DNA of 42,735 nt from a virus. Location of the stretch: the IMG/VR virus record IMGVR_UViG_3300045988_164138, positions 1-42,735 of that record, one strand, 5' to 3'. Position 1 is the stretch's first letter. Each line of letters starts with the position of its first letter. The translations under genes and the position numbers were made by a program. This document shows, piece by piece, positions 2,831 to 38,759 of this stretch. The notes beneath the pieces were generated by a model that saw only the letters and a program-made list of their open reading frames with translations, did no database searches and was not told the DNA's origin.

Positions 2831-2877
2831 AGGACCGTCACCGAGGAACGGTGACAGTACAGAGAGAAGAGGAAATC

Positions 2878-3090: not shown

Positions 3091-3096
3091 CCCGAC

Positions 3097-3140: not shown

Positions 3141-3159
3141 GCAGAAAAGAGGAAAACAA

Positions 3160-4932: not shown

Positions 4933-4940
4933 AAAACATT

Positions 4941-5147
4941 ATGCGCATCACACAGGGCACCACGATTGACGAAATTGCCGGTCGCACCATTATTCTGAAG
5001 TGGCCGACACAGTTCGGCGTCAAGACAATGCAACTGCACGTGCCCAATATTCGATCGGAGAACATCTGGCGGATCCAATGCTATGCTGCCGTCATTTCTA
5101 CGGCGATCGAGGAGCGAGCCGGCCTCACAGCAACCATTATCGAATAA
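4941..5147 (+). CDS. hypothetical protein (68 aa)
   Basis: ATG 4941 lies 13 nt after gaggagg (4921-4927). The track ORF starts at GTG 4929. Confidence 0.5.
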   Translation: MRITQGTTIDEIAGRTIILKWPTQFGVKTMQLHVPNIRSENIWRIQCYAAVISTAIEERAGLTATIIE

Positions 5148-5190
5148 CACATCATCAATCAGCATTTAGGAAGAGAGAGTAAAAACACTA

Positions 5191-5457
5191 ATGGGCGTCT
5201 ACCTAGTATGGGAATCATCGCAGAAGGGCGACTATCGGGTCTATTCGAATCTCGAGCAGGCCGCAATGTGCGCCGAAGAGCTCGACGGCACGGTCTACGA
5301 AATCATGCCGGCCGGCGACGCAAGACTATTCTTCATTGAAGACATTGCGAGTGGAGACATTCAAGTCCAGCGCGACGTCAGGCTTGCCGCTATCGCCGCA
5401 ATTCAGGAAGGAGAGAAATTTGAATTTGAGCCCGGCCGCCGCAACAGCGGTCAGTAA
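5191..5457 (+). CDS. hypothetical protein (88 aa)
   Basis: ATG preceded by aggaagagagagtaaaaacact. Confidence 0.55.
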   Translation: MGVYLVWESSQKGDYRVYSNLEQAAMCAEELDGTVYEIMPAGDARLFFIEDIASGDIQVQRDVRLAAIAAIQEGEKFEFEPGRRNSGQ

Positions 5458-6169
5458 TGTTTTCGCCCCAACCGAACGCGACAAACAAACACGCATTGGC
5501 GTAAGCGAAATCGGGGACGATTGCGAACGGTGCATCGCAGATAAGCTTCTGGGAATCCCGCACGACACGGAAAATACGGGCATCCCACTGGCGCCTTTCC
5601 TGGGCACCGCGTTTCATGCTTACGCGGAATCACGCACAGAAAACGAGCCGAATGTTCTAGTGGAGCAGAGAGTGGAGGTGTGTGATCTTGAAGACTATGG
5701 GCGTATTTCTGGGAGTGTGGATCGTTTCGATATTGCGGCGGCGACAGTCCTAGACTGGAAGCTGCTCTCGCGGAAAAAGATTTCCGCATTTCGAAAGAGC
5801 ACTAAATGGGACAATGGTCTACCACGATTCGCCAACACGGCAGCAGGAAGTCAATTTCGTAAATATTACATTCAAATCATGCTCTACGGGTACGGTCTCA
5901 CGCAGCTCGGATATGAGGTGGCTCACTGTTCTATTGTTGCCCTTCCAAGGGACTGCAGTGTAGAGACTGTGCCGGGCAGTATTTGTGAGTTCTCTTTCCC
6001 GTGGCGGCAGGACGTCGCGCTCGCGGCCCTGGAGAGACTCCAAAACATTTGGGAGAGAGCAAGATCACAAGGCGGCGGGGTTGACAGCCTCCCATCATCC
6101 CCTCTATGTTGGTACTGCTCGCATGAGCGCCACACAGAAGCATTCAAAAACTACAATATCAACGGTTAA
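5420..6169 (+). CDS. Cas4/RecB-like PD-(D/E)XK exonuclease
   Basis: N-terminal Cys pair (DDCERC), GSVDRFD, VLDWKL (D/ExK), QIMLYGY (QhxxY) and C-terminal CWYC. TTG 5420 is preceded by aggaaggagag. The track start at 5336 overlaps the previous gene. Confidence 0.7.
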   Translation: MNLSPAAATAVSNVFAPTERDKQTRIGVSEIGDDCERCIADKLLGIPHDTENTGIPLAPFLGTAFHAYAESRTENEPNVLVEQRVEVCDLEDYGRISGSVDRFDIAAATVLDWKLLSRKKISAFRKSTKWDNGLPRFANTAAGSQFRKYYIQIMLYGYGLTQLGYEVAHCSIVALPRDCSVETVPGSICEFSFPWRQDVALAALERLQNIWERARSQGGGVDSLPSSPLCWYCSHERHTEAFKNYNING

Positions 6170-6185
6170 GGAGGTGAAACATAGT

Positions 6186-6926
6186 ATGACTTTCGAGGAC
6201 ACTCTTACCCGTCTCGGAATGACGGTCGTGAACCCGGAGCAGAATAATCATTTCAACATGCTTATTCATGGTGTGAGCGGCGTCGGCAAAACATCGCTCG
6301 CAGCCACGGCATCACAGGTGGATAACATGTCGCCCGTCCTGTACGTTGATTTTGAATCCGGCACACTCCCAGTACGGGATTGGGGGAACCTGCAGAACAT
6401 TACTGTCGTGCACTGCGACAAGTGGGTTGATTGCGCCAATCTTTGTGACAATATTGCACGCAATCTTGCAGGATTCCCCTACAAGACTGTCGTGTTCGAC
6501 ACGTTGGATAAGTGCCAGGAGCTTATCCTGGCCCACTATGAGACCGTGTCGAATGACACGTGGACGAAATGGCGGGCAGTATACGATTCACTGTTGAAGG
6601 CGATCGGTGTATTCCTGGACGCCCCCGACATTTCATTCATTGCTATCACGCATTCCGCGCGCGAAAGCAATGAGGTCACTGGGGAAACGTTCATTGCCCC
6701 GTCCTTCGAGGGGCAGAAATCTGGGCAGCGCATCCCCGCTTTGTTCAATTTCGTCGGCTACATGGAGTGGGCGAACGTGGATAATGGGGACGGAGAGGAG
6801 ATCACCGTGCCAGTCCTGTACACTCGCAAACCCAACGTTGTGACAAAGCAACAGACGCGTGGGTTCCCGCCAGCAATGGGGAATCCAAGCATGGCCAAGA
6901 TTCACGATTACATCACTAGCCACTAA
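6186..6926 (+). CDS. RecA-like AAA ATPase (Sak4/AAA_24-like recombination ATPase)
   Basis: P-loop IHGVSGVGKTSL and Walker B VVFDTLD. ATG 6186 follows ggaggtgaaaca. Confidence 0.6.
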   Translation: MTFEDTLTRLGMTVVNPEQNNHFNMLIHGVSGVGKTSLAATASQVDNMSPVLYVDFESGTLPVRDWGNLQNITVVHCDKWVDCANLCDNIARNLAGFPYKTVVFDTLDKCQELILAHYETVSNDTWTKWRAVYDSLLKAIGVFLDAPDISFIAITHSARESNEVTGETFIAPSFEGQKSGQRIPALFNFVGYMEWANVDNGDGEEITVPVLYTRKPNVVTKQQTRGFPPAMGNPSMAKIHDYITSH

Positions 6927-6956
6927 CCAAAACATTAGGAAGAGAGAAAAATCATT

Positions 6957-7070
6957 ATGGCTAAGATTACTGTTACCGCTGACCGTGGTGTCTCCGCTGA
7001 GACTCTCACTATCGCCGCCAACGCGATCAGGGAAGCACTCCGCAGCAAGCCCGACACTAGCGAGAACTGA
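6957..7070 (+). CDS. possible 37-aa small protein (MAKITVTADRGVSAETLTIAANAIREALRSKPDTSEN)
   Basis: ATG preceded by aggaagagagaaaaatcatt, the same RBS style as neighbouring genes. It fills an otherwise empty 187-nt gap. Confidence 0.35.
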   Translation: MAKITVTADRGVSAETLTIAANAIREALRSKPDTSEN

Positions 7071-10728: not shown

Positions 10729-12237
10729 TCAGGAATTCTGCTCCGGAGCCGGAGCAGGGGCAGGAGACTCCGGAGTCGGAGACTCTGCGACACCATCATG
10801 CGCCTGCAAAGATGACGGCGTCGACACGGCCTTACGAATCTCGTTCACAGCACCATAAATCGCACCAGCCTCACGAACATTCTCCTGACCCGGAGTCACA
10901 GAATGAAGAATCTGATCCACAGACGCGTGAATAGACTTGACCTCCTCGTAGGTGGCCTTAGCATACCAATTCATGTCGCCCGCAAAGTGATCCCCCGCCT
11001 TTCCACTACGGAAAAGATCGCGAATCTCCCTAAGCAGATCAACACCCTCACTCATATCCCAAAATTCCTCTCCGGCGCCCCCAGAAGGACGACCATAATC
11101 ATACCAAGACTTGCAACGATTACTGAAAAGAATCCCATAAGACTCATACGCACCGTATGGGGTTCCTGAATTATACCGCGACCCGACACGCTTCAAGGCC
11201 TCATAAGAATCGCCTTCAGCGTTGATAAGATCACGAAGAATACGGCAGCCGACTTCAGCTGACTTCTCCGGCATCCACCATTCACGATCCGGGTCATCCA
11301 AGAAATAACCCGGATACGTAATCTGCAACGGCCCTACACCGTTTGAAGTTTCGCCATCTCGAAGCGCCGCCAAGAATTCGCGGAAATTCTCCTCGGTCAC
11401 TTCCTCTCCGTGCGGACCGGCACCCCCGGCGTCGTGCCCGTAAATGTTCGCGCCGCGCTCGCCGGTCTCCATCCACAGGCACGCCAGGGCGGCCCACCAC
11501 GGACAATTCTCCGCGTCGGCGGCCCTGAGGACAGCCTCTTGAATTGAAGAAAGGCGGTACGAGCCGGCGGACTCGTGCCCGTTATCAGCATCGGTTCGTT
11601 TTCCGAAACGGATACATGTTGACCATGAGGCTGCGACGGTCATTGGATGACTACTGTACCGGACTACGTGCGTTTCGTAGCCGGTCTGGTCCCCCATCTG
11701 ACCTTCCGAGATTTCACCATTCTCATTAATCCACGCTTCAGCGAGAAGCGGGTCGCCTGCGTTGAATGAACCGTCGTCTTCGCGCACGCACATTGCGACA
11801 TGGCCGCCGTCTCCGGTGGTTTTCAGGACGAGGTCGCCGACATGGAATCCGCCCGACGGCGTGGACCCGTACCAGGTGTCCCCAATATCCATGAAACCGC
11901 GATTTGCGGCCAAGGAATTCAGGGTTTCGGTCCAGGTTTCGCCGGTTCGCGGGAACATGATCGGATCATCCCAACCGGTTCCCCAAACATTGTGGAATGC
12001 AACATTGTAGGCGCCTGCTACGCCGCTACTGCAATCCATGTCACCGGGGCCCGTTTTCCAGCCGGCATCATTGCTATTCCAGTAACAGGTCCACCGGTTA
12101 TCCTGGGCGTAACCGGTGCCCCCGTAGTCGCCTGTGGTGCACCAATATTTCATTTCCGACGCAGCATATTCTGTGACGGAATCTGCCAATTTTGCACCGC
12201 CTTTCGTAAAGGTTTTCGGTGGTCTTAATTTTATCAT
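10729..12237 (-). CDS. multidomain endolysin: N-terminal Cys-His peptidase (NlpC/P60- or CHAP-like), central lytic transglycosylase/lysozyme-like domain, C-terminal domain
   Basis: DCSSGVAGAY ... GDGGHVAMCV (Cys/His pair). WMETGERG ... GVGPLQITYPGYF (SLT-like E and GLMQ-like motifs). Start chosen at MIKLRPP (12237); the track ORF extends to 12294. Confidence 0.8.
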   Translation of the reverse strand: MIKLRPPKTFTKGGAKLADSVTEYAASEMKYWCTTGDYGGTGYAQDNRWTCYWNSNDAGWKTGPGDMDCSSGVAGAYNVAFHNVWGTGWDDPIMFPRTGETWTETLNSLAANRGFMDIGDTWYGSTPSGGFHVGDLVLKTTGDGGHVAMCVREDDGSFNAGDPLLAEAWINENGEISEGQMGDQTGYETHVVRYSSHPMTVAASWSTCIRFGKRTDADNGHESAGSYRLSSIQEAVLRAADAENCPWWAALACLWMETGERGANIYGHDAGGAGPHGEEVTEENFREFLAALRDGETSNGVGPLQITYPGYFLDDPDREWWMPEKSAEVGCRILRDLINAEGDSYEALKRVGSRYNSGTPYGAYESYGILFSNRCKSWYDYGRPSGGAGEEFWDMSEGVDLLREIRDLFRSGKAGDHFAGDMNWYAKATYEEVKSIHASVDQILHSVTPGQENVREAGAIYGAVNEIRKAVSTPSSLQAHDGVAESPTPESPAPAPAPEQNS

Positions 12238-12355
12238 GAGCACCTGGGGGGTCTTTGGCGCATATAGGTACGTGCGTGCGCGTATACCACACACGCCCAG
12301 TGTCTGTCAATACCTAACACAACATTGGTTTTGTGAGATGGGGCACCACCCATGT

Positions 12356-30236: not shown

Positions 30237-31169
30237 TCAGGCGCCGGCCTTGGTCTTAATCGTCGCGAACTTGTCCGGGAAAACGTACCAAGCGTACAGA
30301 ATCTCAAGGCGGAGAGCGATCTGGTTCCGGCGCTTCAGGTCACCCTGACCGTCCGGGTCGCCGAAACGGATAATCTCGAGCGGCAGAGACCGCTGAATCC
30401 CCCACCGAATACCGTCCACAAAATCACCGACGATACCCTCGACATTGGTAGCGGCGGTAGCCTCAGGCTTGCCAGCAACAGTGTTTCCAGCGGCGACCGG
30501 AAGCCCCATGAAATTATCAATGTCGACGCCGAGGCCGATCTGCGGGTAACGCGGCGTACCCGAAGGAGAACCGTCAGCATTCTTGGTCTGGAGGCTGCCG
30601 AGCGCCCAAACGGCGGACGGGGCCAAAGCGAGGCCGGTGGGAGTAATCGGCGCAGCGTTGTCGTTAATGAGCAGACCAGCGGCCTGGCGGATCGCCTGGT
30701 CCATCTCCGTAGTGCCGATCTCGACATTCTTGGTGGTGGAGGTCAGGTAGTTGTTCCACGCGTCGATAACGGCGCCCGTCAGCGGGTTAACACGGTGGTA
30801 AAGGCCGAGGTCGAGGGCACGGGAAAGCGCCTCACCGCCCTTCTGTGCGAGCTGGTTGAGGACGTCCAACTGATAGTCCTCGTCGGCCCACTGGACCTCC
30901 TCGTTGAATCGCATAGTGACCTGAGCCTTGTGCGGCTTAGCGGTCACGTAACCGAATTCACCGGAGGTGGGTGCCTTCTCGGCGCCCTCGTCGACGAACT
31001 CGGCGCACGGGAAATTATCGAAAGTGATAATGTCCACGTCGCCGAAGGTCATGGGGATTCCGCCGTTGAGCTTGGCGACGGTGGAGAGGGTCTGGGTGCG
31101 AGCAATGATCCCGTCGGCGATCTGCCGAGGCATGAGGACCTTTGCCTTGCCTGAATCAAACACGGCCAT
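30237..31169 (-). CDS. major capsid protein
   Basis: 310 aa, directly after the scaffold gene. Strongly C/G-ending codons suggest high expression. Confidence 0.8.
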   Translation of the reverse strand: MAVFDSGKAKVLMPRQIADGIIARTQTLSTVAKLNGGIPMTFGDVDIITFDNFPCAEFVDEGAEKAPTSGEFGYVTAKPHKAQVTMRFNEEVQWADEDYQLDVLNQLAQKGGEALSRALDLGLYHRVNPLTGAVIDAWNNYLTSTTKNVEIGTTEMDQAIRQAAGLLINDNAAPITPTGLALAPSAVWALGSLQTKNADGSPSGTPRYPQIGLGVDIDNFMGLPVAAGNTVAGKPEATAATNVEGIVGDFVDGIRWGIQRSLPLEIIRFGDPDGQGDLKRRNQIALRLEILYAWYVFPDKFATIKTKAGA

Positions 31170-31228
31170 TTTTGTTGGTTTCCGTTTCTTTCTAGTGTTT
31201 ACTTTTTTAGAATGGCGGCTAGTGTGTT

Positions 31229-31714
31229 TTAGTCGCCGGCGAAAACGTTCCGAGCGAATTCTGCAAGATTGCCGCCGTGATTGTCGGGCGTGGCTCCGGC
31301 TTGTGGTACCACGGGGGCAACAGACGGTTTAGCGTCGTGCAGTGCCTTGGCGATTGCGGCGGCATGAGCGTTGATTTCGTCCTCGGTTGTTCCTCGGATA
31401 AGATCGGCGCTGATGCCGTGTTCTGCGGCTGCGTTGGCGGACCATTCGCGGACTTTGGCGTCGGTTTCGAAGTCGGCCACCTTTGCTTTTAGGGCTTCGA
31501 TTGTGGCGTCTTTGTCGCCGATTGCCTTGGCGAGCTCGTCTCGTTCGTTGGCGGCGCGCCCGTTCTCTTTGGCGCGGTTCTTCCACTTCCGGGACTCGCT
31601 CTTCCAGTCGATTTCAGGCTTACTAGCGGCAGCATTGTCCTCATTCTTGGGGGCATTGTCGTCGTTAGTGGCACTGTTGTCTGCTTGCGTGTCGCTTGCG
31701 GCATTGTCGCGCAT
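31229..31714 (-). CDS. scaffolding protein
   Basis: 161 aa, acidic and helical (ERDELAKAIGDKDATIEALKAKVADFETDAKVREW). Assigned by position. Confidence 0.7.
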   Translation of the reverse strand: MRDNAASDTQADNSATNDDNAPKNEDNAAASKPEIDWKSESRKWKNRAKENGRAANERDELAKAIGDKDATIEALKAKVADFETDAKVREWSANAAAEHGISADLIRGTTEDEINAHAAAIAKALHDAKPSVAPVVPQAGATPDNHGGNLAEFARNVFAGD

Positions 31715-31823
31715 TGGGCGTTTCCTATATTTTGACCGTGCGGTTATTGTGATGTTTTCAGGCAGCTATTTTCGGGCTTTGCAGCCGTCCTTCACTGGCC
31801 TTTGTTTATGCATTGTAGCACAA

Positions 31824-32549
31824 TCATTCAATTGGCTTTGTGCGCCATTCTGCGAGTTCCTCTTGGTGTGTGTCTATCCACGATGAGACGAGTTCGCGGT
31901 GGCGTTCGCGGCCTTTTTCAGTTTTGTGTCTGGCTGCGAGCGTGTATGCTTTTGCGGGGACTTCACGTGCAGTCGGGTCCCATGCGGGGACGGCGACACA
32001 TTTGCAATTATCGTGCGCCCCGAATGACGCGGTCCCCTGGCTGCGGTAGTAGCATTCGTTCATTGTGAGCATGACGCAGAAATTGCATGCTTGAGGGTTA
32101 CGTGTTCGTCTTTCCCATCCCATTGCTTCTGGGTCGGCCCATGTCATGTCTGCGATTTGCGAGCGGGCGCCGTCGCTGACGTATCGGATGAGTGCCCCGG
32201 TCAAATAGGATAGGGCGATGTCGGGGGTTCCGGCGTATAGTGCTCCTGCGCTGAATCTGACGCTGTCGTCGATTTCGCCTTGCGGTGTGAGTGATGTTTG
32301 TACTGTGGGGGCGTCGCCGGGAATGTCCTGGTCTAGGCGCATGTCGCGGTACCATTCGTCGGCGATTGCGGCGGCCGCCCCACCGTATTGGTCTACGAGG
32401 GCGGGCATGATTTCGAGTAGAAGATCGCGGGCTTGTTCGGGGCGTTGTCTAGCGGCGTGGGACCATAGTGTGTGTAAATCGTTTTGGGCGAGTGTGGTGA
32501 GCGAGTCTATTGCTCGACCGTACGCCCCGATTTCTGCGGTTGATAGCAT
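31824..32549 (-). CDS. MuF/SPP1 gp7-like minor head protein
   Basis: 241 aa directly after the portal gene. CNFCVML...CKCVAVP Cys cluster. Confidence 0.55.
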   Translation of the reverse strand: MLSTAEIGAYGRAIDSLTTLAQNDLHTLWSHAARQRPEQARDLLLEIMPALVDQYGGAAAAIADEWYRDMRLDQDIPGDAPTVQTSLTPQGEIDDSVRFSAGALYAGTPDIALSYLTGALIRYVSDGARSQIADMTWADPEAMGWERRTRNPQACNFCVMLTMNECYYRSQGTASFGAHDNCKCVAVPAWDPTAREVPAKAYTLAARHKTEKGRERHRELVSSWIDTHQEELAEWRTKPIE

Positions 32550-32556
32550 AATGGTG

Positions 32557-34164
32557 TTAGTTTATTGGTGTTTTGGTGCCGCCGGGCAGTTTAATGTTGC
32601 GCCTAACCCGGTTCTTTGTATTGGGTGCGTTATTAAGGCCCAGGTTGCTGCCATTGCCGTTATTGCCAGCATTGTTATTGGCGATGTTATAGGCGTTGTC
32701 ACCATCGGCGTCATTGTCCGTGTCACCGTTCTCGCCGTTCTCGTCCACATTCTCGTTATTCGTGGCGGCGAGAGCGCGATCAAGCAACGAAACTGCATTC
32801 TTTTTGCGATTCTCGGCGTTAATGTCTGCGAGATCATCCTCGGTGAGCCCAGCACGCCGCATAAGAGTCTGCGACTCCTGCAACGACGGGAACGCAGACA
32901 CCATTTTGACCGCGAAATCGGCTGCAGACGACGGCGAGGAATAGCGGGCGGGGGTCCACTTCACAGAAGTCTTCCACGACTCCTGCGGCGGCTCGTCAAG
33001 CTTGTCCCTGACCATAATAATGTTCTGCAGCGTGCGCCGCAACGGTGCAGTAAAAATACGCCACTGATACTCGGCTTCGTCCGCGAGCGCCGCCTCAGCA
33101 GCCTGCATCGCCTCAGCCGAGGCAGGGTTCTCCGCGAATACTCCGATCGCGGACTGAGGAAGATTTGTGGCCGCGCACAAATTCTGCGCCAGCTGCCGGT
33201 ACATTTCCAAGTGCGGGCTCATGGTCATTTGTGAGAATTGCCCAACCGACGGGATATCCCCGTTTTCATTCGGCTCCAAAACTTGGACGCGTGCCATGAT
33301 TGCGGACCACCTGTCTTGGCCGGCAAAATCTGCTCTTTCCGCACCGAGCACGTACCGCTGTGGTGAGGAGAAGAATTCTGCGGACGTTTCTGCGCGGACC
33401 ATTGTCCTCACCGCCGCGTCCGTGAGGTACCTTACTTCACGGGTGATTCGTGAATGCCCCAACGGCCTGTTCAATTGTGGGTCGTAGCAGAGTGCTTCGA
33501 CGAAAATGCGGTTGGGCGTGTCTCCTAGTTTTTCAGCTTTCCATCCGCCGCCGTTCTCTTTGGCGTCGATTCGCCAAATGGCGGTGGGGGTGTGCATGAT
33601 GGCGCCGGCCGGCTGCCCGTATTTGTCGGTCTGATCGATCGTGAGGGCGGCCTCGATTATGCGACGCCTAGTGTCCCAAAGAGCGGCAGACCATTCCGCG
33701 TCACGGGCCTGCACCACAACAGGAGGCTCACCGATGGTCTCATCCCCCCGCGTCACTGTGAGCAATGAGAAAGAATGCTTGTAGGCAGACGTGATCGCCT
33801 GGGCGAGATCAAGATCATAATTGTTTGCAGATAGTATTTCGTTTGCTTCGAAAGCGTCCGGGGCACCGTTCAGGGAATAGCCTTCGAACACATGCCTCCT
33901 GGAGAGCATGGTGACGACTTTCTGAGGCCACCCCAACGCGGCCTTGGTGCGCGTCATTTGTGGCGGAATACTGATCCCCAAATCCTGGAAAGCGCGGTGA
34001 CCGTCATAGTAGACGGAGAGCAGTTTGTTTTTGTTTGAGTGCTGCTGCCATTTCTGCCACAGTTGCAGAAATGTTGCATGGTCTTCACCGGGGAGTCCGG
34101 AAATGCGGGTCGGGGCCGGCGTAGCATTAACGAGTCGTCCATCGTCAGGATAAATTTCAGTCAT
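32557..34164 (-). CDS. portal protein
   Basis: 535 aa. ATGA overlap with the TerL stop. SPP1-type order: portal, MuF, scaffold, capsid. Confidence 0.85.
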   Translation of the reverse strand: MTEIYPDDGRLVNATPAPTRISGLPGEDHATFLQLWQKWQQHSNKNKLLSVYYDGHRAFQDLGISIPPQMTRTKAALGWPQKVVTMLSRRHVFEGYSLNGAPDAFEANEILSANNYDLDLAQAITSAYKHSFSLLTVTRGDETIGEPPVVVQARDAEWSAALWDTRRRIIEAALTIDQTDKYGQPAGAIMHTPTAIWRIDAKENGGGWKAEKLGDTPNRIFVEALCYDPQLNRPLGHSRITREVRYLTDAAVRTMVRAETSAEFFSSPQRYVLGAERADFAGQDRWSAIMARVQVLEPNENGDIPSVGQFSQMTMSPHLEMYRQLAQNLCAATNLPQSAIGVFAENPASAEAMQAAEAALADEAEYQWRIFTAPLRRTLQNIIMVRDKLDEPPQESWKTSVKWTPARYSSPSSAADFAVKMVSAFPSLQESQTLMRRAGLTEDDLADINAENRKKNAVSLLDRALAATNNENVDENGENGDTDNDADGDNAYNIANNNAGNNGNGSNLGLNNAPNTKNRVRRNIKLPGGTKTPIN

Positions 34165-35654
34165 AGGAACAATACTCCGCCGCCACGATCATTTCTACTA
34201 TTGGCGTTTTCGATTTTATCATAAGGCTTGTAACGGGGTCGTCTTTTTGTTGTGCGTGCCGCCCACATTGCGAGCGTGCATGCTTCCAGGCCGGCTACCG
34301 TGGCTCCGGGCGGGGCTTGTAGCGCCCATCCTCCTGATGTTCCGATTGGGCGCGGCGTCGCAGACGCGGCCTCGGTCCTCAATTGCATGTCGTCTAGGTG
34401 GGTGATTGTGTTTTCGCGTAGTGAGGCGTCTAACATGCTGTAGGCGTCTATGATTTGCGTGATTGTGGGGGTGATGATGACTTGGGGGCGTACTCCGATG
34501 GCGCGTAGTCTTTCGATTGTGTCGCCGGCACCGTATTTTCCGTCTACGATGATTTGCGCCCATCTGTCTTTGGTGTCCGCAATGTAGTCGATTATCCATT
34601 GTGTACCTTCGTTCATGCGGCGGACGCCCTGGTGGGTGCATAGTTCGACGTGCGTGGGCGTGTTTGCCTTGTGTCCCGCTCGGGCTAGGGCGCATGTTGA
34701 TCCGTCGGGTGCGAATCTGATTGCGGCACACCATCGCATGCCGGTCGGCGTGTTTTCTGGCCGTATTGTGGCGGTGTTCCAGGCGGCGGGGTCGATTGCG
34801 AGCCTGTCGTTGGCTCGGTCCCATATTCCGAGGCCTTCACGGCGGAATGATTCTTCTCCGAGTTGTCTGCGCATTCTTAGAATGGCGGATTCGGGTGTGC
34901 GGCGCGGGTATGATGGGTTTGCTTTTTCCCATTGTTTCCGGTCGTCGCTGTTAGCGTCGTAGTCGGCGGCTAGTTCGAGGTAGAGGCCGTCTTTTATTTC
35001 GCCTTGTAGGGCGAGGTTGCGGAATTCGCTGAATGCTTCTGATGGGTCTTTTGGTTTTGGTGGTGTTCCTATTTTGATGATGAGCGGATCCGGGGCGGTG
35101 TTTGTGGCGGGGATCATGTCGTCTAGTGCGGCTGCGCCCAGGATCTGGGCTTCGTCGAAGAGGATCATGTCTACGCCGTGGAATCCTCGTCCGAATCCGC
35201 CTTCGCGGGCGCCGAAGAGGATTCGTGATCCGTTGTTGAAGAGGATGGCTTGTTGCCCGTTCGCTTGCCGTATTTTATTCACGTACGGTGCGATGTTGGG
35301 GATTTGTGCCATTCCTTTCATGTCGTTGAATGTTTCGTCTGCTGTGCGTGTGCGGTGTGCGGTCCAGAGTACGAAGTAGTTTGGGTGGATGGTGGCGAGT
35401 GCGAATGTGAGGCCGCCGATTGTGTATGTTTTGCCGACCTGTCGTGGGATGCTGGCTTGGATTCCGTCGATGCTGGCGGCGTAGTGGCCGTCGTTTCGTT
35501 TTGCGAGGATTGCTTTGAGCCAGTCTTGTTGCCATGTGTCGAGGGGGTATTGCATTTCTTGGAGGCGGTGTTTGACTGGCGGCCAGGCGGTGTGTGTGAT
35601 GTTTTCTGGGAGGGTGAGGTGGGCGGCGATTTCGCTGAGGTGTTTTTCGCTCAT
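34161..35654 (-). CDS. terL: terminase large subunit
   Basis: Walker A PRQVGKTY, Walker B MILFDEAQ, and a C-terminal nuclease region. Confidence 0.9.
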   Translation of the reverse strand: MSEKHLSEIAAHLTLPENITHTAWPPVKHRLQEMQYPLDTWQQDWLKAILAKRNDGHYAASIDGIQASIPRQVGKTYTIGGLTFALATIHPNYFVLWTAHRTRTADETFNDMKGMAQIPNIAPYVNKIRQANGQQAILFNNGSRILFGAREGGFGRGFHGVDMILFDEAQILGAAALDDMIPATNTAPDPLIIKIGTPPKPKDPSEAFSEFRNLALQGEIKDGLYLELAADYDANSDDRKQWEKANPSYPRRTPESAILRMRRQLGEESFRREGLGIWDRANDRLAIDPAAWNTATIRPENTPTGMRWCAAIRFAPDGSTCALARAGHKANTPTHVELCTHQGVRRMNEGTQWIIDYIADTKDRWAQIIVDGKYGAGDTIERLRAIGVRPQVIITPTITQIIDAYSMLDASLRENTITHLDDMQLRTEAASATPRPIGTSGGWALQAPPGATVAGLEACTLAMWAARTTKRRPRYKPYDKIENANSRNDRGGGVLFL

Positions 35655-35655
35655 T

Positions 35656-35937
35656 TTAGATGCCGTCCCAGGTTTGTGTTTCGTTTGAAATGTCGGTGGG
35701 GTGTGTGGTGGTGTTTTCGTTTTGTGTGGTGGCGAGTTGGTCTGTGATTTGTATGAGTTGTGCGGTGAGTTTTGTGAGTGCTGTGTCGCCTGTTCTGGGG
35801 TCGTCTATGACGGTGGCGATTTTGTGTGCGAGTGCTTGGCGGATGAGTGTTGGGTTGTTTGTGTTTGTGGCGTCTGTGATGGGTGTGGGGCTGTTGGGTT
35901 CGTATATGGTGATTGTGGTATTTGTGTGGGTTGTCAT
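35656..35937 (-). CDS. hypothetical protein (possible small terminase subunit, by position only)
   Basis: 93 aa. T/N-rich ends and a helical core. RBS agaggg. It stops 1 nt before the terL start. Confidence 0.35.
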   Translation of the reverse strand: MTTHTNTTITIYEPNSPTPITDATNTNNPTLIRQALAHKIATVIDDPRTGDTALTKLTAQLIQITDQLATTQNENTTTHPTDISNETQTWDGI

Positions 35938-35979
35938 ACCCTCTATTATATGCTGTGATACTCCTTACGTCTGTCAGAG

Positions 35980-36075
35980 TTTTCCACAGGGTTTTCCACA
36001 GGGTGGGGAGTTTTCCACATGATGGCGGTCACATTGTGATCTGGGTTACTGGAGTTATCCACAAGGTTTTCCACA
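35980..36075 (+). promoter_or_regulatory. cluster of five same-orientation DnaA-box-like 9-mers, TT(T/A)TCCACA
   Basis: ttttccaca at 35980-35988, 35992-36000, 36011-36019 and 36067-36075. The exact consensus ttatccaca is at 36055-36063. Confidence 0.6.
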
Positions 36076-36259
36076 AGCAGGGAGGGATGGGCAGACCTTC
36101 GGGGTGTTCGCGGCCGGATGGGGGAGGGGGGGGTGGCCCCCATCACACAATTTGTGTGGTGTGCGTCTCGTTTCGCTCCGTTCCCTGCCTTGTTTTGTGG
36201 TGTGAGTCCCACTTTAAGGAATCCCTTACTGTTGTGGGGCCCCCCTTCGTTCGTCTCGT

Positions 36260-36590
36260 TTTGTTGCCATGGTTTTTTTGAACACCATTGTTTGGTTTGT
36301 GCCTTTGAATTTTTTTGCATGTTTTTGTAACATTTCTTTTGTTTTTATGCGTTTTTGCGTGTTTGTGCGTTTGTGCGTTGTGTTGCCTTTGTGGCATGCG
36401 TTGGCACCATGCATGGTGCATGGTATTGGTATGCATGTCATGCATCATGTCATCATCACATGTTCATCATCATGTTGATCATGTTCATTGTCGATCATGA
36501 TTGATCATCATCATGTTCGTTGTTCATTGTTATTGATTGTTGATTGAACGTTGATCATGTTGATCATGATCGTTCGTTGGTTGTGTGATC
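36260..36590. repeat. T-rich/AT-rich tract with GCGTTT iterons, a 14-bp palindrome and a GATC/TGATCA cluster
   Basis: gcgtttttgcgtgtttgtgcgtttgtgcgttgtg. caccatgcatggtg at 36405-36418. Seven GATC between 36477 and 36590, including gttgatcatg at 36474, 36550 and 36559. Confidence 0.7.
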
Positions 36591-36948
36591 GTGAACGAGT
36601 GAGAGTAGATGAGTGGATGGTGTCCGTCTCTCGTCTGTGTGGTGTGTGGAATGGCGGTTGGTGTGTGTTGCTGCTGGCCTGCGCTGTCCGGTGTGTGCGG
36701 CCCGGCCCGCACTCCACCTCCTCGGTGCGCGGTGAGTACTGCGTCATGTCGTGTACTGTTCCTTGCCGGGTGTGTGGTGCAGTGCGGGTGAGTGTCTGTC
36801 TGTGCTGTTCGTGTGATGGGGTATCCTTCGTCTGCTCTCCCCTGGTCGTGGTGGTGGGTGGGGCTATCGTGGATGGGTGGGCGGCATTGTGGTGGTGGGT
36901 GGCATAGCATTGAAGGGCGGGTGCTGTGATGCTGTCCCTCCCGTCTGC

Positions 36949-36987
36949 GTGTTGGCGTCCCCCTTGTTCGGTGTTGGCGTCCCCCTT
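36949..36987 (+). repeat. 17-bp direct repeat gtgttggcgtccccctt x2 (22-bp period)
   Basis: Copies at 36949-36965 and 36971-36987. Confidence 0.85.
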
Positions 36988-37358
36988 CCGTTTGCGTGGT
37001 GGTCCTGTTGAATGGCGGGGGTGGCGTGTGTTGTGGTGTTCCGTGTTCGGATTGGGTCTTTCCCTTCATGTTGTCCCTGGTCCTCTCGTATTGTCCTCGC
37101 TCCTCTTCCTCTTGTGTTGCTGCGTCTGTTGTGGGTGTGGGGGGGGTGCGGGCGGGGGTTTACCTCGTTGTGAAACTGTGGCTTGCTTCTCCTCTCTCTT
37201 TGTGTTCACTGTCACAGTATTGTTGGTTAGGGTGGTGTGTTTGTGGCAGGGTTGTGTTATTGTGGAATGGCGGTGGTGTGGTGAGGGTGTGTGGTCTCGT
37301 TATCTGTTTTCCTGTTTCTTTTCTTCTTCTTTCTTTTCTTCTTCTTCCTTTTCTTGTT

Positions 37359-37415
37359 GGTGTTCGGGGTAGTGCGCGCGCAGCCATGCGAGCACGCACG
37401 TTATCCCCGAACACC
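37359..37415. ncRNA. structured hairpin element, copy 1 (11-bp outer stem plus conserved 32-nt core)
   Basis: ggtgttcgggg [tagtgcgcgcgcagccatgcgagcacgcacgt tat] ccccgaacacc. On the plus strand it is preceded by a roughly 45-nt polypyrimidine tract. Confidence 0.5.
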
Positions 37416-37508
37416 ATGTGTTCCCTTGTTGTTTTGTCTTCTCTTCTTCCTGTTCCTTGATCTTCTTCCTCGTCCGCTTTTCCTTTTGTTGGAATGGCGG
37501 TGGGTGTT

Positions 37509-37853
37509 TCACCATGTGTCAGAGTGTTCGGTGGGCATGACGGCGACGGGTAGTCTGTCTCGCTCGTCCTCGTTTTTCTGGTAGTGGCGTGCTCTTCCTT
37601 TGCCTCCTCGTCCGTTGCCTCGTCTGCTGTTGCATTTGGCGCAGAGGACTCGTCCGTTGTCCGGGTGATTGGTTCCGCCTAACGAGGCTGGGATTATGTG
37701 GTCCGCTTCGGCGCTGTTTGGTTTGCGTTCCCCGTTATTGTTGTATTGGAGTTTTACTCCGCATGCTGGGCAGTGTGTGATGCCTATTTGTTGTGCTCTG
37801 GCGAGTACTTGTTTTCTGAATTGTTTGTGTTCGCGTGTGCTTGTTCTGCTCAT
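37509..37853 (-). CDS. HNH endonuclease
   Basis: CPACG...ADHIIPASLGGTNHPDNGRVLCAKCN (HNH with two CxxC pairs). RBS agagagaagagaac. Confidence 0.85.
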   Translation of the reverse strand: MSRTSTREHKQFRKQVLARAQQIGITHCPACGVKLQYNNNGERKPNSAEADHIIPASLGGTNHPDNGRVLCAKCNSRRGNGRGGKGRARHYQKNEDERDRLPVAVMPTEHSDTW

Positions 37854-38016
37854 CGTGTGTTCTCTTCTCTCTTTGCTTTTCTCTCTCGTGTTTGTGTTAG
37901 GTGGTGGCGCGTCGCAGCGTCAGCGAGACGAGCGCCTCCACCGTCTAACACTACCCTCCCTGTTCTCTTCTCGTCTTTCTTCTCGTCGCCTTTCTTCTCT
38001 TCTCGTCTTGTGGGTT

Positions 38017-38076
38017 GGCGTGCGTTGTGTAGTGCGCGCGCAGCCATGCGAGCACGCACGTAACACAGCGCACGCC
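38017..38076. ncRNA. structured hairpin element, copy 2 (14-bp outer stem, same 32-nt core)
   Basis: ggcgtgcgttgtgt [agtgcgcgcgcagccatgcgagcacgcacgt a] acacagcgcacgcc. The outer stem sequence differs from copy 1 but remains complementary (one G-T pair). Confidence 0.5.
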
Positions 38077-38230
38077 CCCCTTGTGTTCTGGCTTGTCTTA
38101 TTGGTCGCATGTTGTGTGCCTACCATCACACGTAATGCTTGTTGCATCCATCGCAACACGGCATCTATTGCTTACACCACACACTGTTCGTTGTTAACGA
38201 TCACCACGCTCACCATTGAACACTAATTAC

Positions 38231-38239
38231 GTTATAACA
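38231..38239 (-). promoter_or_regulatory. putative extended -10 (TGtTATAAC) of the late operon
   Basis: The minus strand reads tgttataac. The nearest palindromic operator is centred about 25 bp upstream. Nothing but HNH and the late genes lies downstream. Confidence 0.3.
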
Positions 38240-38252
38240 CACGTTCCCTAAA

Positions 38253-38305
38253 TAGACACTGTCTAACAAAAATAGACACTGTCTAACACGACTAGACAGT
38301 GTCTA
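38253..38305. promoter_or_regulatory. three 13-bp palindromic operator-like sites, TAGACAnTGTCTA, spaced exactly 20 bp apart
   Basis: Sites at 38253-38265 and 38273-38285 (tagacactgtcta) and 38293-38305 (tagacagtgtcta). The first two lie inside an identical 19-mer, aaatagacactgtctaaca. Confidence 0.65.
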
Positions 38306-38312
38306 ATTCTAG

Positions 38313-38328
38313 TACTCTTTTAAGAGTA
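38313..38328. promoter_or_regulatory. 16-bp palindrome tactctt-tt-aagagta next to the operator array
   Basis: 7-bp arms separated by a 2-nt centre. Confidence 0.4.
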
Positions 38329-38759
38329 TAGGTTGAGCCCAACACAGTGGCGAGCTCTTCGAAAACACCCTGCGGCGCCGACGCTCGCTTGCGTCGCTAG
38401 GGCTCCTCAGCGGCTGCGCCGCAGATCGTCTTCGACGATTCGTCTACTCGAGTGTAGCATACGGGACCAAAGTCACCGCAACAAACACTGCCAACAAAGC
38501 AACTGCAACAGAGACTATTCGTTGCAATCACAAGGAACACACTGACACAAACCCTTGCTACAAGGGCAGAAAGTGTGACGACACGCACCAACATTGTACT
38601 AACACAAACGGGTATTTTCGCCCTAGAACCCCGGTTGCTAGCAAACAACCCACATGCATGGAAAGTTAATGGAAGGTTAACGGAAACTGTGAAAGATCGG
38701 CGTGTTGGCGACACCGCACACCACCATCACACACCGCCCTTCTACAGCAGGCGCACCAC

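What the first reader, a model, noticed from the sequence alone, without database searches (positions are those of the whole stretch)
35938..37508. 1.57-kb gene-free region with oriC-like architecture between HNH and the terminase genes
Read from left to right on the plus strand, the region contains:
- Five same-orientation DnaA-box-like 9-mers within 96 bp (four TTTTCCACA and one perfect TTATCCACA).
- A G-run/C-run (36120-36141).
- A roughly 150-bp T-rich tract with GCGTTT(T)G iterons.
- A 14-bp palindrome, CACCATGCATGGTG.
- Seven GATC in 114 bp, including three GTTGATCATG.
- A 17-bp direct repeat pair.
- Four GAATGGCGG motifs and a second G-run (37139-37158).

Interpretation:
- ORFs here are low-complexity and lack RBSs.
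- DnaA boxes, an AT-rich unwinding-type element and clustered GATC are the grammar of oriC and P1 oriR-type origins.
- The location (HNH ... terS/terL) is also where cos sites normally lie.
- It may be a DnaA-dependent phage origin, a DnaA-titrating element, a cos/packaging region, or a combination.
Basis: partly seen in the sequence, partly recalled or inferred. Interest (0 to 1): 0.7.

Follow-up and report, generated by a model that had tools for sequence, protein, structure and literature searches.

The report
Phage cos junction with DnaA-box array
The gene-free stretch is where the two sticky ends of a roughly 43-kb phage genome join (its packaging cut site), flanked on one side by a row of host-initiator (DnaA)-type binding sites and on the other by a long non-coding tail; it is mostly ordinary, with an unusual DnaA-box twist.

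Summary
The best-supported identity is the cohesive-end (cos) junction, not an oriC-like origin.

**Termini.** At least 9 independent metagenomic contigs of 96-99% related phages start at exactly window 36093. One of them has an Illumina adapter fused to that base. Right-end contigs stop exactly at 36105. The 11 nt between them (36094-36104) are missing from both ends, as expected for a 3' overhang. The termini are homologous to the determined ends of Rothia phage Spartoi and P. freudenreichii phage G4.

**G-run/C-run.** It is a conserved part of this cos family.

**The five boxes.** They lie 19-114 bp inside the left end, in the cosB position, upstream of a conserved TATAAT-N7-ATG (leaderless) terS start. 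They are true DnaA-type arrays. Across 165 copies only the known degenerate position varies. The same pair of boxes 3 bp apart occurs in 112 unrelated viral contigs, often beside terminase or replication genes.

**Against an oriC-type origin.** No DnaA-trios or adjacent unwinding element, no GC-skew switch, and no nearby initiator gene. An origin role is unsupported but not excluded.

**Remaining 1.4 kb.** It is non-coding right-end DNA, absent from the isolated relatives and analogous to the P. acnes phage non-coding region. It contains a covariation-supported hairpin.

The parts
37509..37853 (-). HNH endonuclease gene, the last gene before the right genome end
   Evidence: Pfam HNH and HNH_5, E about 1e-10. 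HNH is also the last gene in Spartoi, MrSmee, G4 and PA6.
37359..37415 (-). Hairpin A: a GC-rich stem-loop in a nearly invariant 60-nt block, flanked by variable polypurine (AAG) tracts
   Evidence: 95-99% identical across 24 relatives. RNA fold -39 kcal/mol, z -5.5. Found only in this lineage. It shares its core with hairpin B, whose outer stem covaries.
38017..38075 (-). Hairpin B: a second copy of the same core, upstream of HNH (outside the finding)
   Evidence: 7 pairs with changes on both sides; 27 such cells against 7.0 +/- 2.1 in shuffles (0 of 500); 93.8% of cells paired.
36649..37500 (-). Four CACCGCCATTCCA motifs (GAATGGCGG on the + strand at 36649, 37010, 37265 and 37492); function unknown
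   Evidence: 7 of 7 copies in the window lie on one strand, against 0.77 expected. All four positions are conserved in relatives. In many relatives the motif forms the 3' base of hairpin B.
37090..37180 (.). Hypervariable, indel-rich stretch that includes the second G-run
   Evidence: Identity 0.21-0.36 and gap fraction 0.4-0.6 in the alignment.
36434..36590 (.). Degenerate short tandem repeats (ATGATCA / CATG units) that carry the GATC cluster
   Evidence: Tandem Repeats Finder arrays. In all 25 genomes 3-9 GATC persist 350-490 bp from the right end, with turnover of individual sites.
36399..36445 (.). Highly conserved CATG-rich block that includes the palindrome CACCATGCATGGTG (36406-36419)
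   Evidence: 90-97% identity, higher than the roughly 91% DNA identity of the aligned coding regions.
36250..36370 (-). A-rich tract (T-rich on the + strand) with phased A-tracts, probably intrinsically bent DNA, 150-265 bp from the right end
   Evidence: A-tract centres at 249.5, 239.5, 219.5 and 208.5 bp from the end, spaced about 10 bp or multiples of it. Blocks are 95% conserved. It ranks among the least stable duplex segments of the window but is not the least stable.
36144..36158 (.). Palindrome CACACAA-T-TTGTGTG, 40-54 bp from the right end
   Evidence: Seen in the sequence. The CACA...TGTG arms are kept in relatives.
36120..36141 (.). G-run/C-run inverted repeat, a conserved element on the right side of the cos site
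   Evidence: Equivalent G-run/C-run hairpins lie about 20-50 nt from the right ends of Spartoi, MrSmee and G4. 99% conserved here.
36105..36119 (-). Right genome end: forward-strand sequence ...CATCCGGCCGCGAACA, last paired base at 36105
   Evidence: Contigs L095 and L109 end exactly here. L099 has unrelated sequence immediately after it. L137, L140, L141 and L145 end 7-17 nt short of it.
36094..36104 (-). Inferred 11-nt 3' cohesive overhang, 5'-CCCCGAAGGTC on the forward strand
   Evidence: It is missing from both end-type contigs of one sample (L045 and L095) but present in more than 30 contigs that span the junction. It is homologous in position to G4's 12-nt 3' extension (PMC5831693) and to the Spartoi right end.
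36076..36093 (-). Left genome end, TGCCCATCCCTCCCTGCT (C-run element)
   Evidence: At least 9 contigs from at least 4 samples begin at exactly 36093. L045 has the adapter CTGAACCGCTCTTCCGATCT fused to it. A C-run at positions 9-15 is shared with the left ends of isolated relatives.
35980..36075 (-). Array of five same-orientation DnaA-type boxes, C-N-TGTGGA(A/T)AAC; two pairs have 3-bp spacers; cosB position
   Evidence: 165 boxes in 25 genomes, with only box position 3 varying (A 122, T 41, C 2). There are 5-9 copies per genome, and the last box always starts 50-51 nt before the terS ATG. The same tandem 22-mer occurs in 112 unrelated viral contigs.
36029..36039 (.). Palindrome TCACA-A-TGTGA between boxes 2 and 3; candidate site for a dimeric protein
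   Evidence: CACAATGTGAC is conserved in relatives, and several carry the perfect GTCACAATGTGAC.
35945..35950 (-). TATAAT -10 hexamer, 7 nt before the terS ATG: putative promoter of a leaderless late-operon mRNA
   Evidence: CATATAAT is invariant in 23 of 24 relatives, while the 7 nt between it and the ATG vary. That it acts as a promoter is inferred.
35656..35937 (-). terS-like gene (93 aa, acidic)
   Evidence: PHROG 1459, terminase small subunit, E 9e-5. pI 4.55 with only 4 Lys+Arg. 17-22% identical to TerS of isolated relatives.
34161..35654 (-). terL (large terminase subunit)
   Evidence: Pfam Terminase_6N. 45-50% identical to TerL of Arthrobacter, Rothia and P. freudenreichii cos phages.

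Best explanation
The region is the joined cohesive-end site (cos) of a roughly 43-kb cos-type siphovirus of an actinobacterial host (probably human-associated), together with the non-coding DNA on either side of it.

Cleavage. The phage-forward strand is the window minus strand. The junction reads ...CATCCGGCCGCGAACA / CCCCGAAGGTC / TGCCCATCCCTCCC.... Terminase (TerS plus TerL), helped by the adjacent HNH nuclease, nicks the forward strand between 36094 and 36093 and the other strand between 36104 and 36105. This gives 11-nt 3' overhangs.

Packaging. It starts at the left end and runs towards terS-terL. The 1.4-kb right-end non-coding DNA is therefore packaged last and, by analogy with lambda, injected first.

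Recognition elements. The G-run/C-run and neighbouring palindrome on the right-end side, and the C-run plus first box on the left-end side, are the conserved recognition module of this terminase lineage.

The box array. In this lineage the single left-end box has been inverted and amplified into 5-9 direct DnaA-type boxes. They occupy the cosB position and abut a leaderless terS promoter. They most likely bind host DnaA, forming a nucleoprotein complex that assists or regulates terminase assembly, late-operon expression, or both.

What is shown and what is inferred. Shown in silico: the position of the ends, homology to determined cos sites, the non-coding nature of the region, and the character of the box motif. 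Inferred: the 3' polarity and exact length of the overhang, DnaA binding, the promoter, and the direction of packaging and injection.
For: Ends:
- Contig starts cluster at window 36093. L002, L012, L024, L027, L035, L051, L057 and L062 start at exactly the same base, and L053 starts one base outside it.
- L045 carries an Illumina adapter fused to that base.
- Right-end contigs L095 and L109 end exactly at ...GCGAACA. L099 has foreign sequence directly after it. L137, L140, L141 and L145 end within 17 nt of it. All of these are true contig ends.
- L045 and L095 come from the same HMP-type sample, and both lack the 11-mer.

Homology:
- The Spartoi right end...GGGGGGCAAGCCCCCATCGGCGGGCCAGACGAACACCCCCCGGCGAT, aligns with ours.
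- G4 has a determined 12-nt 3' extension at the equivalent place (PMC5831693). P. acnes phages have an 11-nt 3' extension (PMC3448167).
- The left ends of Spartoi, MrSmee, AbbyDaisy and G4 share a C-run followed by TTTTCCACA at nt 19-29, and two Leucobacter prophages have the same sequence about 1 kb upstream of terL. Our first box lies at nt 19-27.

Gene order: HNH, gap, terS, terL.

Boxes:
- Variation is restricted to the degenerate position of the DnaA consensus, there are pairs with 3-bp spacers, and the distance to the terS ATG is fixed.
- Tandem boxes no more than 3 bp apart are the commonest arrangement in chromosomal origins (PMC8287927) and also occur in the T5 iss region (bioRxiv 10.1101/866236).
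- The identical tandem 22-mer occurs in 112 unrelated viral contigs with GC 27-70%.
- Some of these sit directly upstream of terminase genes: L196, L200, L205, L215 and L224. L155 has the order HNH, boxes, terS, terL.
- TerS here is acidic and lacks a basic arm.

Non-coding: no codon periodicity, and the length varies between relatives.
Against: - No wet-lab mapping of the ends has been done for this phage. The overhang polarity rests on both contig ends lacking the 11-mer and on what is known for relatives.
- Some contigs break inside the box repeats (36004-36022). That is ordinary assembly behaviour and shows that repeats also cause contig ends here.
- Across the wider terminase family the left-end element drifts away from the DnaA consensus: TTTTCCACC, TTTTTCGCA, TTTTTCCCA, TTTTCCACG and TTTTCCGCA. 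The ancestral single box may therefore be a terminase site rather than a DnaA site.
- The box orientation is inverted here relative to the isolated relatives.
- Near-terminase placement of tandem boxes in unrelated phages is only about 16-19% of loci, a modest enrichment at best.
- The function of the 1.4-kb right-end DNA is not explained by packaging, because isolated relatives manage with 49-157 bp.
Confidence: 0.6

Rival explanations
1. DnaA-dependent phage replication origin that straddles cos. After the ends anneal, the DnaA-box array (left end) is brought next to the bent A-rich tract, the palindromes and the ATGATCA repeats (right end). DnaA then opens the AT-rich DNA and the phage primase-helicase is loaded.
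For: - There is a genuine DnaA-type array with tandem pairs.
- In unrelated phages the same tandem unit often lies beside replication initiator or primase-helicase genes and iteron-like repeats: L164, L187, L198, L250 and L252.
- 36256-36355 and 36420-36569 rank among the least stable duplex segments of the window.
- The 36105-36460 block is more conserved than the coding DNA.
- P. acnes phages have an analogous non-coding region that was proposed to be an origin (PMC3448167).
Against: - No DnaA-trios lie on either side of the array (direct reading of 36076-36110 and 35938-35979).
- The AT-rich tract is 175 bp from the nearest box, behind a 99% conserved GC-rich cos core.
- There is no GC-skew sign change at the region.
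- The replication genes lie 7 kb or more away, at about 300-7000 in the window.
- The least stable segment of the window is elsewhere, at 38187-38336.
- Isolated relatives have a single box and no long non-coding DNA.
Confidence: 0.2
2. The boxes are terminase (TerS, TerL or HNH) recognition repeats, a classical cosB. Their likeness to DnaA boxes is coincidental and DnaA plays no part.
For: - The array sits between the nick site and terS, as the lambda R sites do.
- A T-run followed by CCACA at nt 19-29 of the left end is conserved across the terminase family and drifts away from the DnaA consensus in mycobacteriophages and a Gordonia phage. This is the pattern expected of a phage-specific site.
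- Positions outside the 9-mer (C at -2, C at +10) are invariant in this lineage.
Against: - TerS is acidic (pI 4.55, 4 Lys+Arg) and only 17-22% identical to relatives' TerS, yet the box is identical.
- Variation among the 165 boxes falls only at the DnaA-degenerate position.
- The exact tandem 22-mer recurs in 112 unrelated phage contigs with unrelated terminases and a wide range of GC content. A lineage-specific protein cannot explain that.
Confidence: 0.2
3. The contig-end pile-up is an assembly artefact caused by the repeats and homopolymer runs. Under this reading there is no defined terminus here.
For: Several contigs break inside the box repeats (36004-36022), and two contigs show fold-back chimeras at this spot: L033 and L055.
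Against: - The same base is the first base of 8 contigs from at least 4 samples.
- An adapter is fused exactly there (L045), and foreign sequence is fused exactly at the other end (L099).
- The two ends leave a constant 11-nt gap.
- The termini are homologous to experimentally determined ends of isolated phages (PMC5831693).
Confidence: 0.04

Closest known systems
cos sites of HNH-associated actinobacteriophages with 3' overhangs (Rothia phage Spartoi, Arthrobacter phages MrSmee and AbbyDaisy, P. freudenreichii phages G4, B22, E6 and Doucette)
   Same: The gene order HNH, cos, terS, terL is the same, and TerL is 45-50% identical. All have a G-run/C-run hairpin about 20-50 nt from the right end. 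The ...GAACA-CCCC... cut context resembles Spartoi. All have a C-run and one TTTTCCACA-type box at nt 19-29 of the left end, and an overhang of 11-12 nt (G4: 12-nt 3' extension).
   Different: Here the box is inverted and amplified to 5-9 copies. There are 1.4 kb of non-coding DNA between HNH and the right end, against 49-157 bp in the isolates. A TATAAT-N7-ATG leaderless start precedes terS. TerS is very divergent and acidic.
Lambda cos (cosQ-cosN-cosB with TerS R sites and IHF sites)
   Same: A nick site is flanked on the terS side by repeated protein-binding sites and on the other side by a termination-type element. Bent DNA and a host factor are plausible.
   Different: There is no sequence relation. 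The overhang is 3' rather than 5'. An HNH helper nuclease is present. The repeats have the sequence of DnaA boxes rather than R sites, and binding has not been tested.
Right-end non-coding region of P. acnes (Cutibacterium) phages (Marinelli et al. 2012, PMC3448167)
   Same: It is more than 1 kb of non-coding DNA near the right end, next to HNH. It is the most variable part of the genome, has odd base composition and conserved low-complexity runs, and has polypyrimidine/polypurine tracts and repeated hairpins. It was proposed to be an origin, without experimental evidence.
   Different: In PA6 it lies upstream of the gp46-48/HNH cluster, whereas here most of it lies between HNH and cos, with a smaller part and hairpin B upstream of HNH. 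There is no detectable DNA similarity, and no DnaA boxes have been reported there.
T5 injection-stop (iss) region (bioRxiv 10.1101/866236)
   Same: [quoted passage not shown] It has DnaA boxes in pairs 3 bp apart, and the authors judge it not to be the origin.
   Different: T5 has terminal repeats, not cos. Its boxes lie on the first-injected DNA in inverted-repeat modules. Here the boxes lie on the probably last-injected left end, as a direct array beside terS.
Chromosomal oriC basal unwinding system, and P1 oriR or plasmid iteron origins
   Same: There are tandem same-orientation DnaA boxes with a 3-bp spacer, an AT-rich tract and clustered GATC in the neighbourhood, and five boxes as in P1 oriR and datA.
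   Different: There are no DnaA-trios and no adjacent unwinding element. There is no Rep/initiator gene and there are no long iterons. Dam dependence is unknown, and no methylase was found among the ORFs scanned.

Membership tests
cos site of a cos-packaging phage (HNH/TerS/TerL type, 3' overhang) | Unique, defined genome termini at one sequence position | tested here: met
   In silico only. Eight contigs start at 36093 and a ninth starts one base outside it. One carries an adapter fused there. Two contigs end exactly at 36105 and a third has foreign sequence fused directly after the end, and four end within 17 nt of it.
cos site of a cos-packaging phage (HNH/TerS/TerL type, 3' overhang) | Complementary single-stranded extensions of about 10-13 nt | tested here: inconclusive
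   The 11 nt at 36094-36104 are absent from both end-type contigs and present in junction-spanning contigs. This is consistent with 3' overhangs removed by end repair. Polarity was not measured directly.
cos site of a cos-packaging phage (HNH/TerS/TerL type, 3' overhang) | Location between HNH endonuclease and terS-terL | tested here: met
cos site of a cos-packaging phage (HNH/TerS/TerL type, 3' overhang) | Sequence homology of the termini to experimentally determined cos ends of relatives | tested here: met
   Spartoi right end; left-end C-run plus box in Spartoi, MrSmee, AbbyDaisy and G4; G4 ends as determined in PMC5831693.
cos site of a cos-packaging phage (HNH/TerS/TerL type, 3' overhang) | Cleavage by terminase plus HNH at this site | not testable with these tools
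   Needs an in vitro cos-cleavage assay.
DnaA-box array (sites bound by host DnaA) | Match to TT(A/T)TNCACA, with variation confined to tolerated positions | tested here: met
   5 of 5 boxes in the window. Across 165 boxes in 25 genomes only position 3 varies.
DnaA-box array (sites bound by host DnaA) | Recurrence of the same unit across hosts, independent of phage lineage | tested here: met
   112 unrelated viral contigs, GC 27-70%.
DnaA-box array (sites bound by host DnaA) | Physical binding of DnaA | not testable with these tools
   Needs EMSA, footprinting or ChIP. The host is not identified.
oriC-type / basal-unwinding-system origin | Tandem DnaA boxes no more than 3 bp apart | tested here: met
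   Boxes 1-2 and 4-5 have 3-bp spacers. Criterion taken from PMC8287927.
oriC-type / basal-unwinding-system origin | DnaA-trios (three or more N-A-N triplets in register) within about 16 bp of the box | tested here: not met
   Read directly. 36076-36110 has no run of central-A triplets in any frame on either strand. The terS side is the wrong side and is not conserved.
oriC-type / basal-unwinding-system origin | AT-rich unwinding element directly beyond the trios | tested here: not met
   The nearest AT-rich tract (36250-36370) is 175 bp away, across the GC-rich cos core.
oriC-type / basal-unwinding-system origin | Strand-composition (GC-skew) switch at the site | tested here: not met
   The skew stays positive on both sides, from 30-38 kb. 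This is weak evidence for a phage.
oriC-type / basal-unwinding-system origin | Supports autonomous or initiator-dependent replication | not testable with these tools
   Needs a plasmid replication assay, or marker-frequency or 2D-gel analysis.
P1 oriR / iteron-plasmid-type origin | Adjacent Rep/initiator gene with its iterons, plus DnaA boxes | tested here: not met
   The flanking genes are HNH and terS/terL. Only degenerate 6-16-bp repeats are present.
Lambda-type cosB | Repeated protein sites between the nick site and the terS gene | tested here: met
   The array lies 19-114 bp from the left end, upstream of terS.
Lambda-type cosB | The sites are bound by TerS | not testable with these tools
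   TerS is acidic, pI 4.55, which argues weakly against direct binding.
P. acnes-phage-type right-end non-coding region | More than 1 kb of non-coding, hypervariable, low-complexity DNA next to HNH at the right end | tested here: met
   PA6 layout; PMC3448167. There is no sequence similarity, so this is an analogy, not homology.

The most novel reading that the evidence does not exclude
Host DnaA is a built-in cofactor of the packaging and late-gene switch. It binds a DnaA-box array in the cosB position and does for terminase what IHF does at lambda cosB. Alternatively, it acts as a genome-copy counter: amplified phage genomes titrate DnaA and thereby time terS-terL expression and cos cleavage. 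The tandem-box unit sits just upstream of terminase genes in several unrelated phage lineages (L155, L196, L200/L205/L215 and L224). This suggests the arrangement may be general rather than peculiar to this phage.
Probability: 0.22. Interest if true: 0.8.

Novelty: new variant of a known kind. Interest (0 to 1): 0.45.

Why it matters
- **Genome ends.** The work fixes the genome ends, the orientation and probably the packaging mode of an abundant, uncultured, human-associated actinophage lineage: more than 60 near-identical IMG/VR contigs that currently carry arbitrary start points.
- **The 'oriC grammar'.** What looked like origin grammar is mostly cos grammar for this terminase family.
- **An open question.** It is not known why bona fide DnaA-type box arrays sit beside packaging genes. 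If DnaA takes part in cos recognition or late timing, that would be a new host-factor dependency. It could be tested by EMSA or ChIP, and it would be relevant to Actinobacteria, which are generally thought to lack classical IHF (background knowledge, not tested here).
- **Data quality.** The analysis also exposes adapter and chimeric sequence at the ends of public viral contigs.

Tried and rejected
- Megablast of the region against 50,697 phage records gave no match.
- Rfam gave only sub-threshold chance hits. No tRNA genes were found.
- Protein-coding reading rejected: there are no Pfam hits, no codon periodicity, and indels that do not preserve frame.
- Host identification failed:
  - The terL scan of GTDB genomes found only 41%-identical Leucobacter prophages.
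  - The exact HNH protein is not on record.
  - A lysis-region protein has only weak Rothia and Streptococcus phage matches.
- P1-pac-like Dam control of the TGATCA cluster was considered. No methylase was found among the ORFs scanned and the cluster is 370-490 bp from the cut, so this was left open.
- A Chi-like role for CCGCCATTC was considered. All 7 copies lie on the strand that ends 3' at the right terminus, but nothing tests the idea.
- The hairpin search in IMG/VR found only this lineage.
- The consensus promoter scan does not report the TATAAT at 35945-35950, because there is no -35 match.
- Using locus ends to ask whether arrays in unrelated phages lie at contig ends was abandoned. 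Loci from pattern scans are storage chunks, not contig ends.
- The literature search for DnaA boxes together with cos and terminase returned nothing.
Full report
**1.

The 1571-bp gap at 35938-37508 lies between minus-strand genes. HNH is at 37853-37509. A 93-aa terS-like gene is at 35937-35656, followed by terL and the portal gene.

- The five TTWTCCACA 9-mers are at 35980-36075, all on the + strand. The whole window has 6 matches against 0.53 expected by chance.
- GATC occurs 7 times in 36477-36590.
- GAATGGCGG occurs 4 times in the region.
- The G-run/C-run, the 14-bp palindrome, the 17-bp direct repeat and the T-rich repeats are all in the sequence.

The region is non-coding:
- The three longest ORFs have no Pfam hit.
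- In 24 distinct relatives the gap length varies from 1385 to 1825 bp.
- Substitutions show no codon periodicity (0.121/0.112/0.112), while terL in the same genomes gives 0.020/0.007/0.098.

**2. What the window is**

TerL is 45-50% identical to TerL of Arthrobacter phages MrSmee and AbbyDaisy, Rothia phage Spartoi, and P. freudenreichii phages G4, B22, E6 and Doucette. In all of these terL starts 325-990 nt from the left physical end.

IMG/VR holds 62 loci with 94-99% TerL identity, mostly on 42-43-kb contigs.

The window's + strand genes at about 300-7000 encode primase/helicase, helicase and Sak4. The layout is therefore that of P. acnes phages: the left arm runs rightward, the right arm runs leftward, and HNH is alone at the extreme right (PMC3448167). 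The window is a circular permutation of such a genome.

**3. The physical ends lie inside the finding**

I mapped the first bases of the related contigs onto the window.

*Left end:*
- L002, L012, L024, L027, L035, L051, L057 and L062 all begin with the same base, TGCCCATCC... (L057 reads TGCTCATCC). L053 starts one base outside it. This base is window 36093 read on the minus strand.
- L045 begins with the Illumina adapter tail CTGAACCGCTCTTCCGATCT fused directly to that base.

*Right end* (scan for the sequence on the far side of the junction):
- L095 and L109 end exactly at ...CATCCGGCCGCGAACA (window 36105).
- L099 carries unrelated sequence immediately after it.
- L137, L141 and L145 end 12-17 nt short of it. 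L140 ends 7 nt short, in a Nextera adapter.
- All of these are true contig ends.

*The overhang:*
- L045 and L095 come from one sample, and both lack the 11 nt CCCCGAAGGTC.
- More than 30 contigs that span the junction contain those 11 nt.
- Loss from both ends is what end repair does to 3' overhangs. A 5' overhang would be filled in and appear at both ends.

*Homology to determined ends:*
- The Spartoi record ends ...GGGGGGCAAGCCCCCATCGGCGGGCCAGACGAACACCCCCCGGCGAT. Ours reads ...GGGGGCCACCCCCCCCTCCCCCATCCGGCCGCGAACA|CCCCGAAGGTC.
- G4's determined 12-nt 3' extension, CCAACAAGTCAT, sits at the equivalent place (PMC5831693).
- P. acnes phages have an 11-nt 3' extension (PMC3448167).

I put the cos assignment at about 0.95.

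**4. Several 'oriC-like' items are cos parts**

- A G-run/C-run inverted repeat lies about 20-50 nt from the right end in Spartoi, MrSmee and G4 as well.
- The left ends of Spartoi, MrSmee, AbbyDaisy and G4 share a C-run followed by TTTTCCACA at nt 19-29, and two Leucobacter prophages have the same sequence about 1 kb upstream of terL. Our first box occupies nt 19-27, but inverted.
- In more distant TerL relatives (37-43% identity) the element drifts: TTTTCCACC (ZoeJ), TTTTTCGCA (Fionnbharth), TTTTTCCCA (MarkPhew) and TTTTCCACG (Lucky10). One Leucobacter prophage has TTTTCCGCA.
- The cos core at 36069-36140 is 99% conserved among 24 relatives. That is more than the coding DNA, which is about 91%.

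**5. The boxes**

Across 25 genomes there are 165 boxes, all in one orientation, with 5-9 per genome. They are arranged in pairs 12 bp apart, centre to centre, which gives a 3-bp spacer. The pair units repeat every 31 bp.

The consensus is C-N-TGTGGA(A/T)AAC. Only the third box position varies: A 122, T 41 and C 2, the last giving the actinobacterial form TTGTCCACA. The last box always starts 50-51 nt before the terS ATG, although the intervening sequence varies.

Are they DnaA boxes or lineage-specific terminase sites? Of the hits, 112 loci are unrelated to this phage, with GC from 27% to 70%. Nearly all are intergenic, and they often form arrays of 2-8 boxes. By my estimate, fewer than one hit is expected by chance even in 10^11 bases.

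Their neighbours include:
- replication initiators and primase-helicases (L164, L187, L198, L225, L250, L252);
- terminase genes (L196 upstream of terS; L200, L205 and L215 83-90 nt upstream of an HNH-TerL fusion; L224 between terS and terL; L172; L236);
- methylases;
- microvirus pilot proteins.

A phmmer lower bound finds a TerL homologue within 3.5 kb in 21 loci and replication proteins in 17. L155 (GC 0.47) has the order HNH, small ORFs, three boxes, terS, terL.

Only a universal binder explains this recurrence, and that points to DnaA. Further support:
- Tandem boxes no more than 3 bp apart are the commonest arrangement in chromosomal origins (PMC8287927).
- They also occur in the non-coding iss region of T5-like phages (bioRxiv 10.1101/866236).
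- TerS here is acidic (pI 4.55, 4 Lys+Arg) and only 17-22% identical to relatives' TerS.

I put DnaA binding at about 0.65. The family-wide drift described in section 4 keeps the classical-cosB reading alive.

**6. Why this is not an oriC-type origin**

- The DNA next to box 1 is the GC-rich left end and the cos core.
- No run of central-A triplets (DnaA-trios) exists there in any frame, by direct reading.
- The AT-rich tract starts 175 bp away, on the other genome end.
- It is unstable but not uniquely so. The least stable 100-150-bp segment of the window is 38187-38336.
- GC skew does not change sign here.
- There is no adjacent initiator gene and no second DnaA-box cluster.
- Isolated relatives have one box and only 49-157 bp between HNH and the end.

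An origin that is assembled only on joining of the ends remains possible, at about 0.2.

**7. The right-end 1.4 kb**

Conservation is patchy.

*Conserved parts:*
- The 350 bp nearest the end: a palindrome; phased A-tracts at 208-250 bp from the end; and a CATG-palindrome block.
- A 60-nt block holding hairpin A, at 95-99% identity.
- The four CACCGCCATTCCA motifs.

*Variable parts:*
- 37090-37180 is hypervariable.
- The GATC/TGATCA cluster persists as 3-9 sites at 350-490 bp from the end in every relative, but individual sites turn over. What is kept is therefore the repeat character, not particular sites.

*Hairpins:*
- The core of hairpin A recurs upstream of HNH as hairpin B (38017-38075).
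- The outer stem of hairpin B covaries: 7 pairs change on both sides, with 27 such cells against 7.0 +/- 2.1 in shuffles (0 of 500).
- An invariant T-G pair on the forward strand hints that this strand, as HNH-sense RNA, is the one that folds.

The region as a whole parallels the non-coding region of more than 1 kb in P. acnes phages (PMC3448167), but without sequence similarity. By analogy with lambda it would be the first DNA injected. That is an inference.

**8. Late promoter**

CATATAAT is invariant in 23 of 24 relatives and ends 7 nt before the terS ATG, while those 7 nt vary. This fits a leaderless actinobacterial mRNA. The fixed 50-51-nt distance from the last box to the ATG suggests that the array and the promoter are functionally linked. 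Both points are inferences.

**9. Verdict**

I rate the feature a new variant of a known kind. It is a cos site of a known terminase lineage whose single left-end box has become a 5-9-copy DnaA-type array, combined with a long structured non-coding right end.

Noticed in passing
window 38253-38265, 38273-38285, 38293-38305: Three 13-bp palindromes (TAGACACTGTCTA twice, TAGACAGTGTCTA once) are spaced exactly 20 bp apart. They lie in the least stable segment of the window, between HNH and the first leftward early genes, next to a promoter-like TCGCCA-17-TATACT on the minus strand. They look like an operator array for an early regulator.
   Followed up: partly
window 37359-37415 and 38017-38075: Two hairpins flank the HNH gene. 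They share an identical 28-nt core and have different, covarying outer stems, and each lies among polypurine tracts. They may be RNA processing or stability elements, or insulators. They are found only in this phage lineage.
   Followed up: partly
window 31000-38000: Strand composition is extremely asymmetric: AT skew reaches -0.67 and GC skew +0.36 on the + strand. The asymmetry extends into terS and terL. As a result terS encodes a Thr/Asn/His/Pro-rich acidic protein, and the T-poor forward strand carries long spurious ORFs.
   Followed up: partly
window 14091, 31210, 34880, 36649, 37010, 37265, 37492: All seven copies of GAATGGCGG (CCGCCATTC on the phage-forward strand) lie on one strand. 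One copy sits in the short intergenic gap upstream of the gene at 30237-31169. In many relatives the motif forms the 3' foot of hairpin B. Its function is unknown; a Chi-like role or an RNA signal was considered but not tested.
   Followed up: partly
L153-L267 (IMG/VR): The tandem DnaA-box unit TGTGGAWAACYYTGTGGAWAAC occurs in 112 unrelated viral contigs (GC 27-70%), mostly intergenic. At least 21 have a TerL homologue within 3.5 kb and at least 17 have a replication protein within 3.5 kb. L155 and L184 repeat the order HNH, boxes, terS, terL.
   Followed up: partly
L045:1-20, L140 end, L099 end, L033:1-110, L055:1-40: Public IMG/VR contigs of this phage carry non-phage sequence at their ends: an Illumina adapter, a Nextera adapter, 68 nt of unrelated sequence, and fold-back chimeras centred on the 11-nt overhang.
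   Followed up: yes
window 36949-36987: The 17-bp direct repeat is a 22-bp tandem duplication. It is polymorphic among relatives (gap fraction 0.42 in the alignment), so it looks like a recent slippage event rather than a functional iteron pair.
   Followed up: partly
window 36029-36039: The palindrome TCACA-A-TGTGA lies between boxes 2 and 3, and several relatives carry the perfect GTCACAATGTGAC. It is conserved and looks like a site for a dimeric protein inside the box array.
   Followed up: no
window 10729-12294 (minus strand): A 521-aa ORF with an endolysin-like domain (Pfam ELLD) lies on the opposite strand, inside the otherwise + strand early/replication arm.
   Followed up: no
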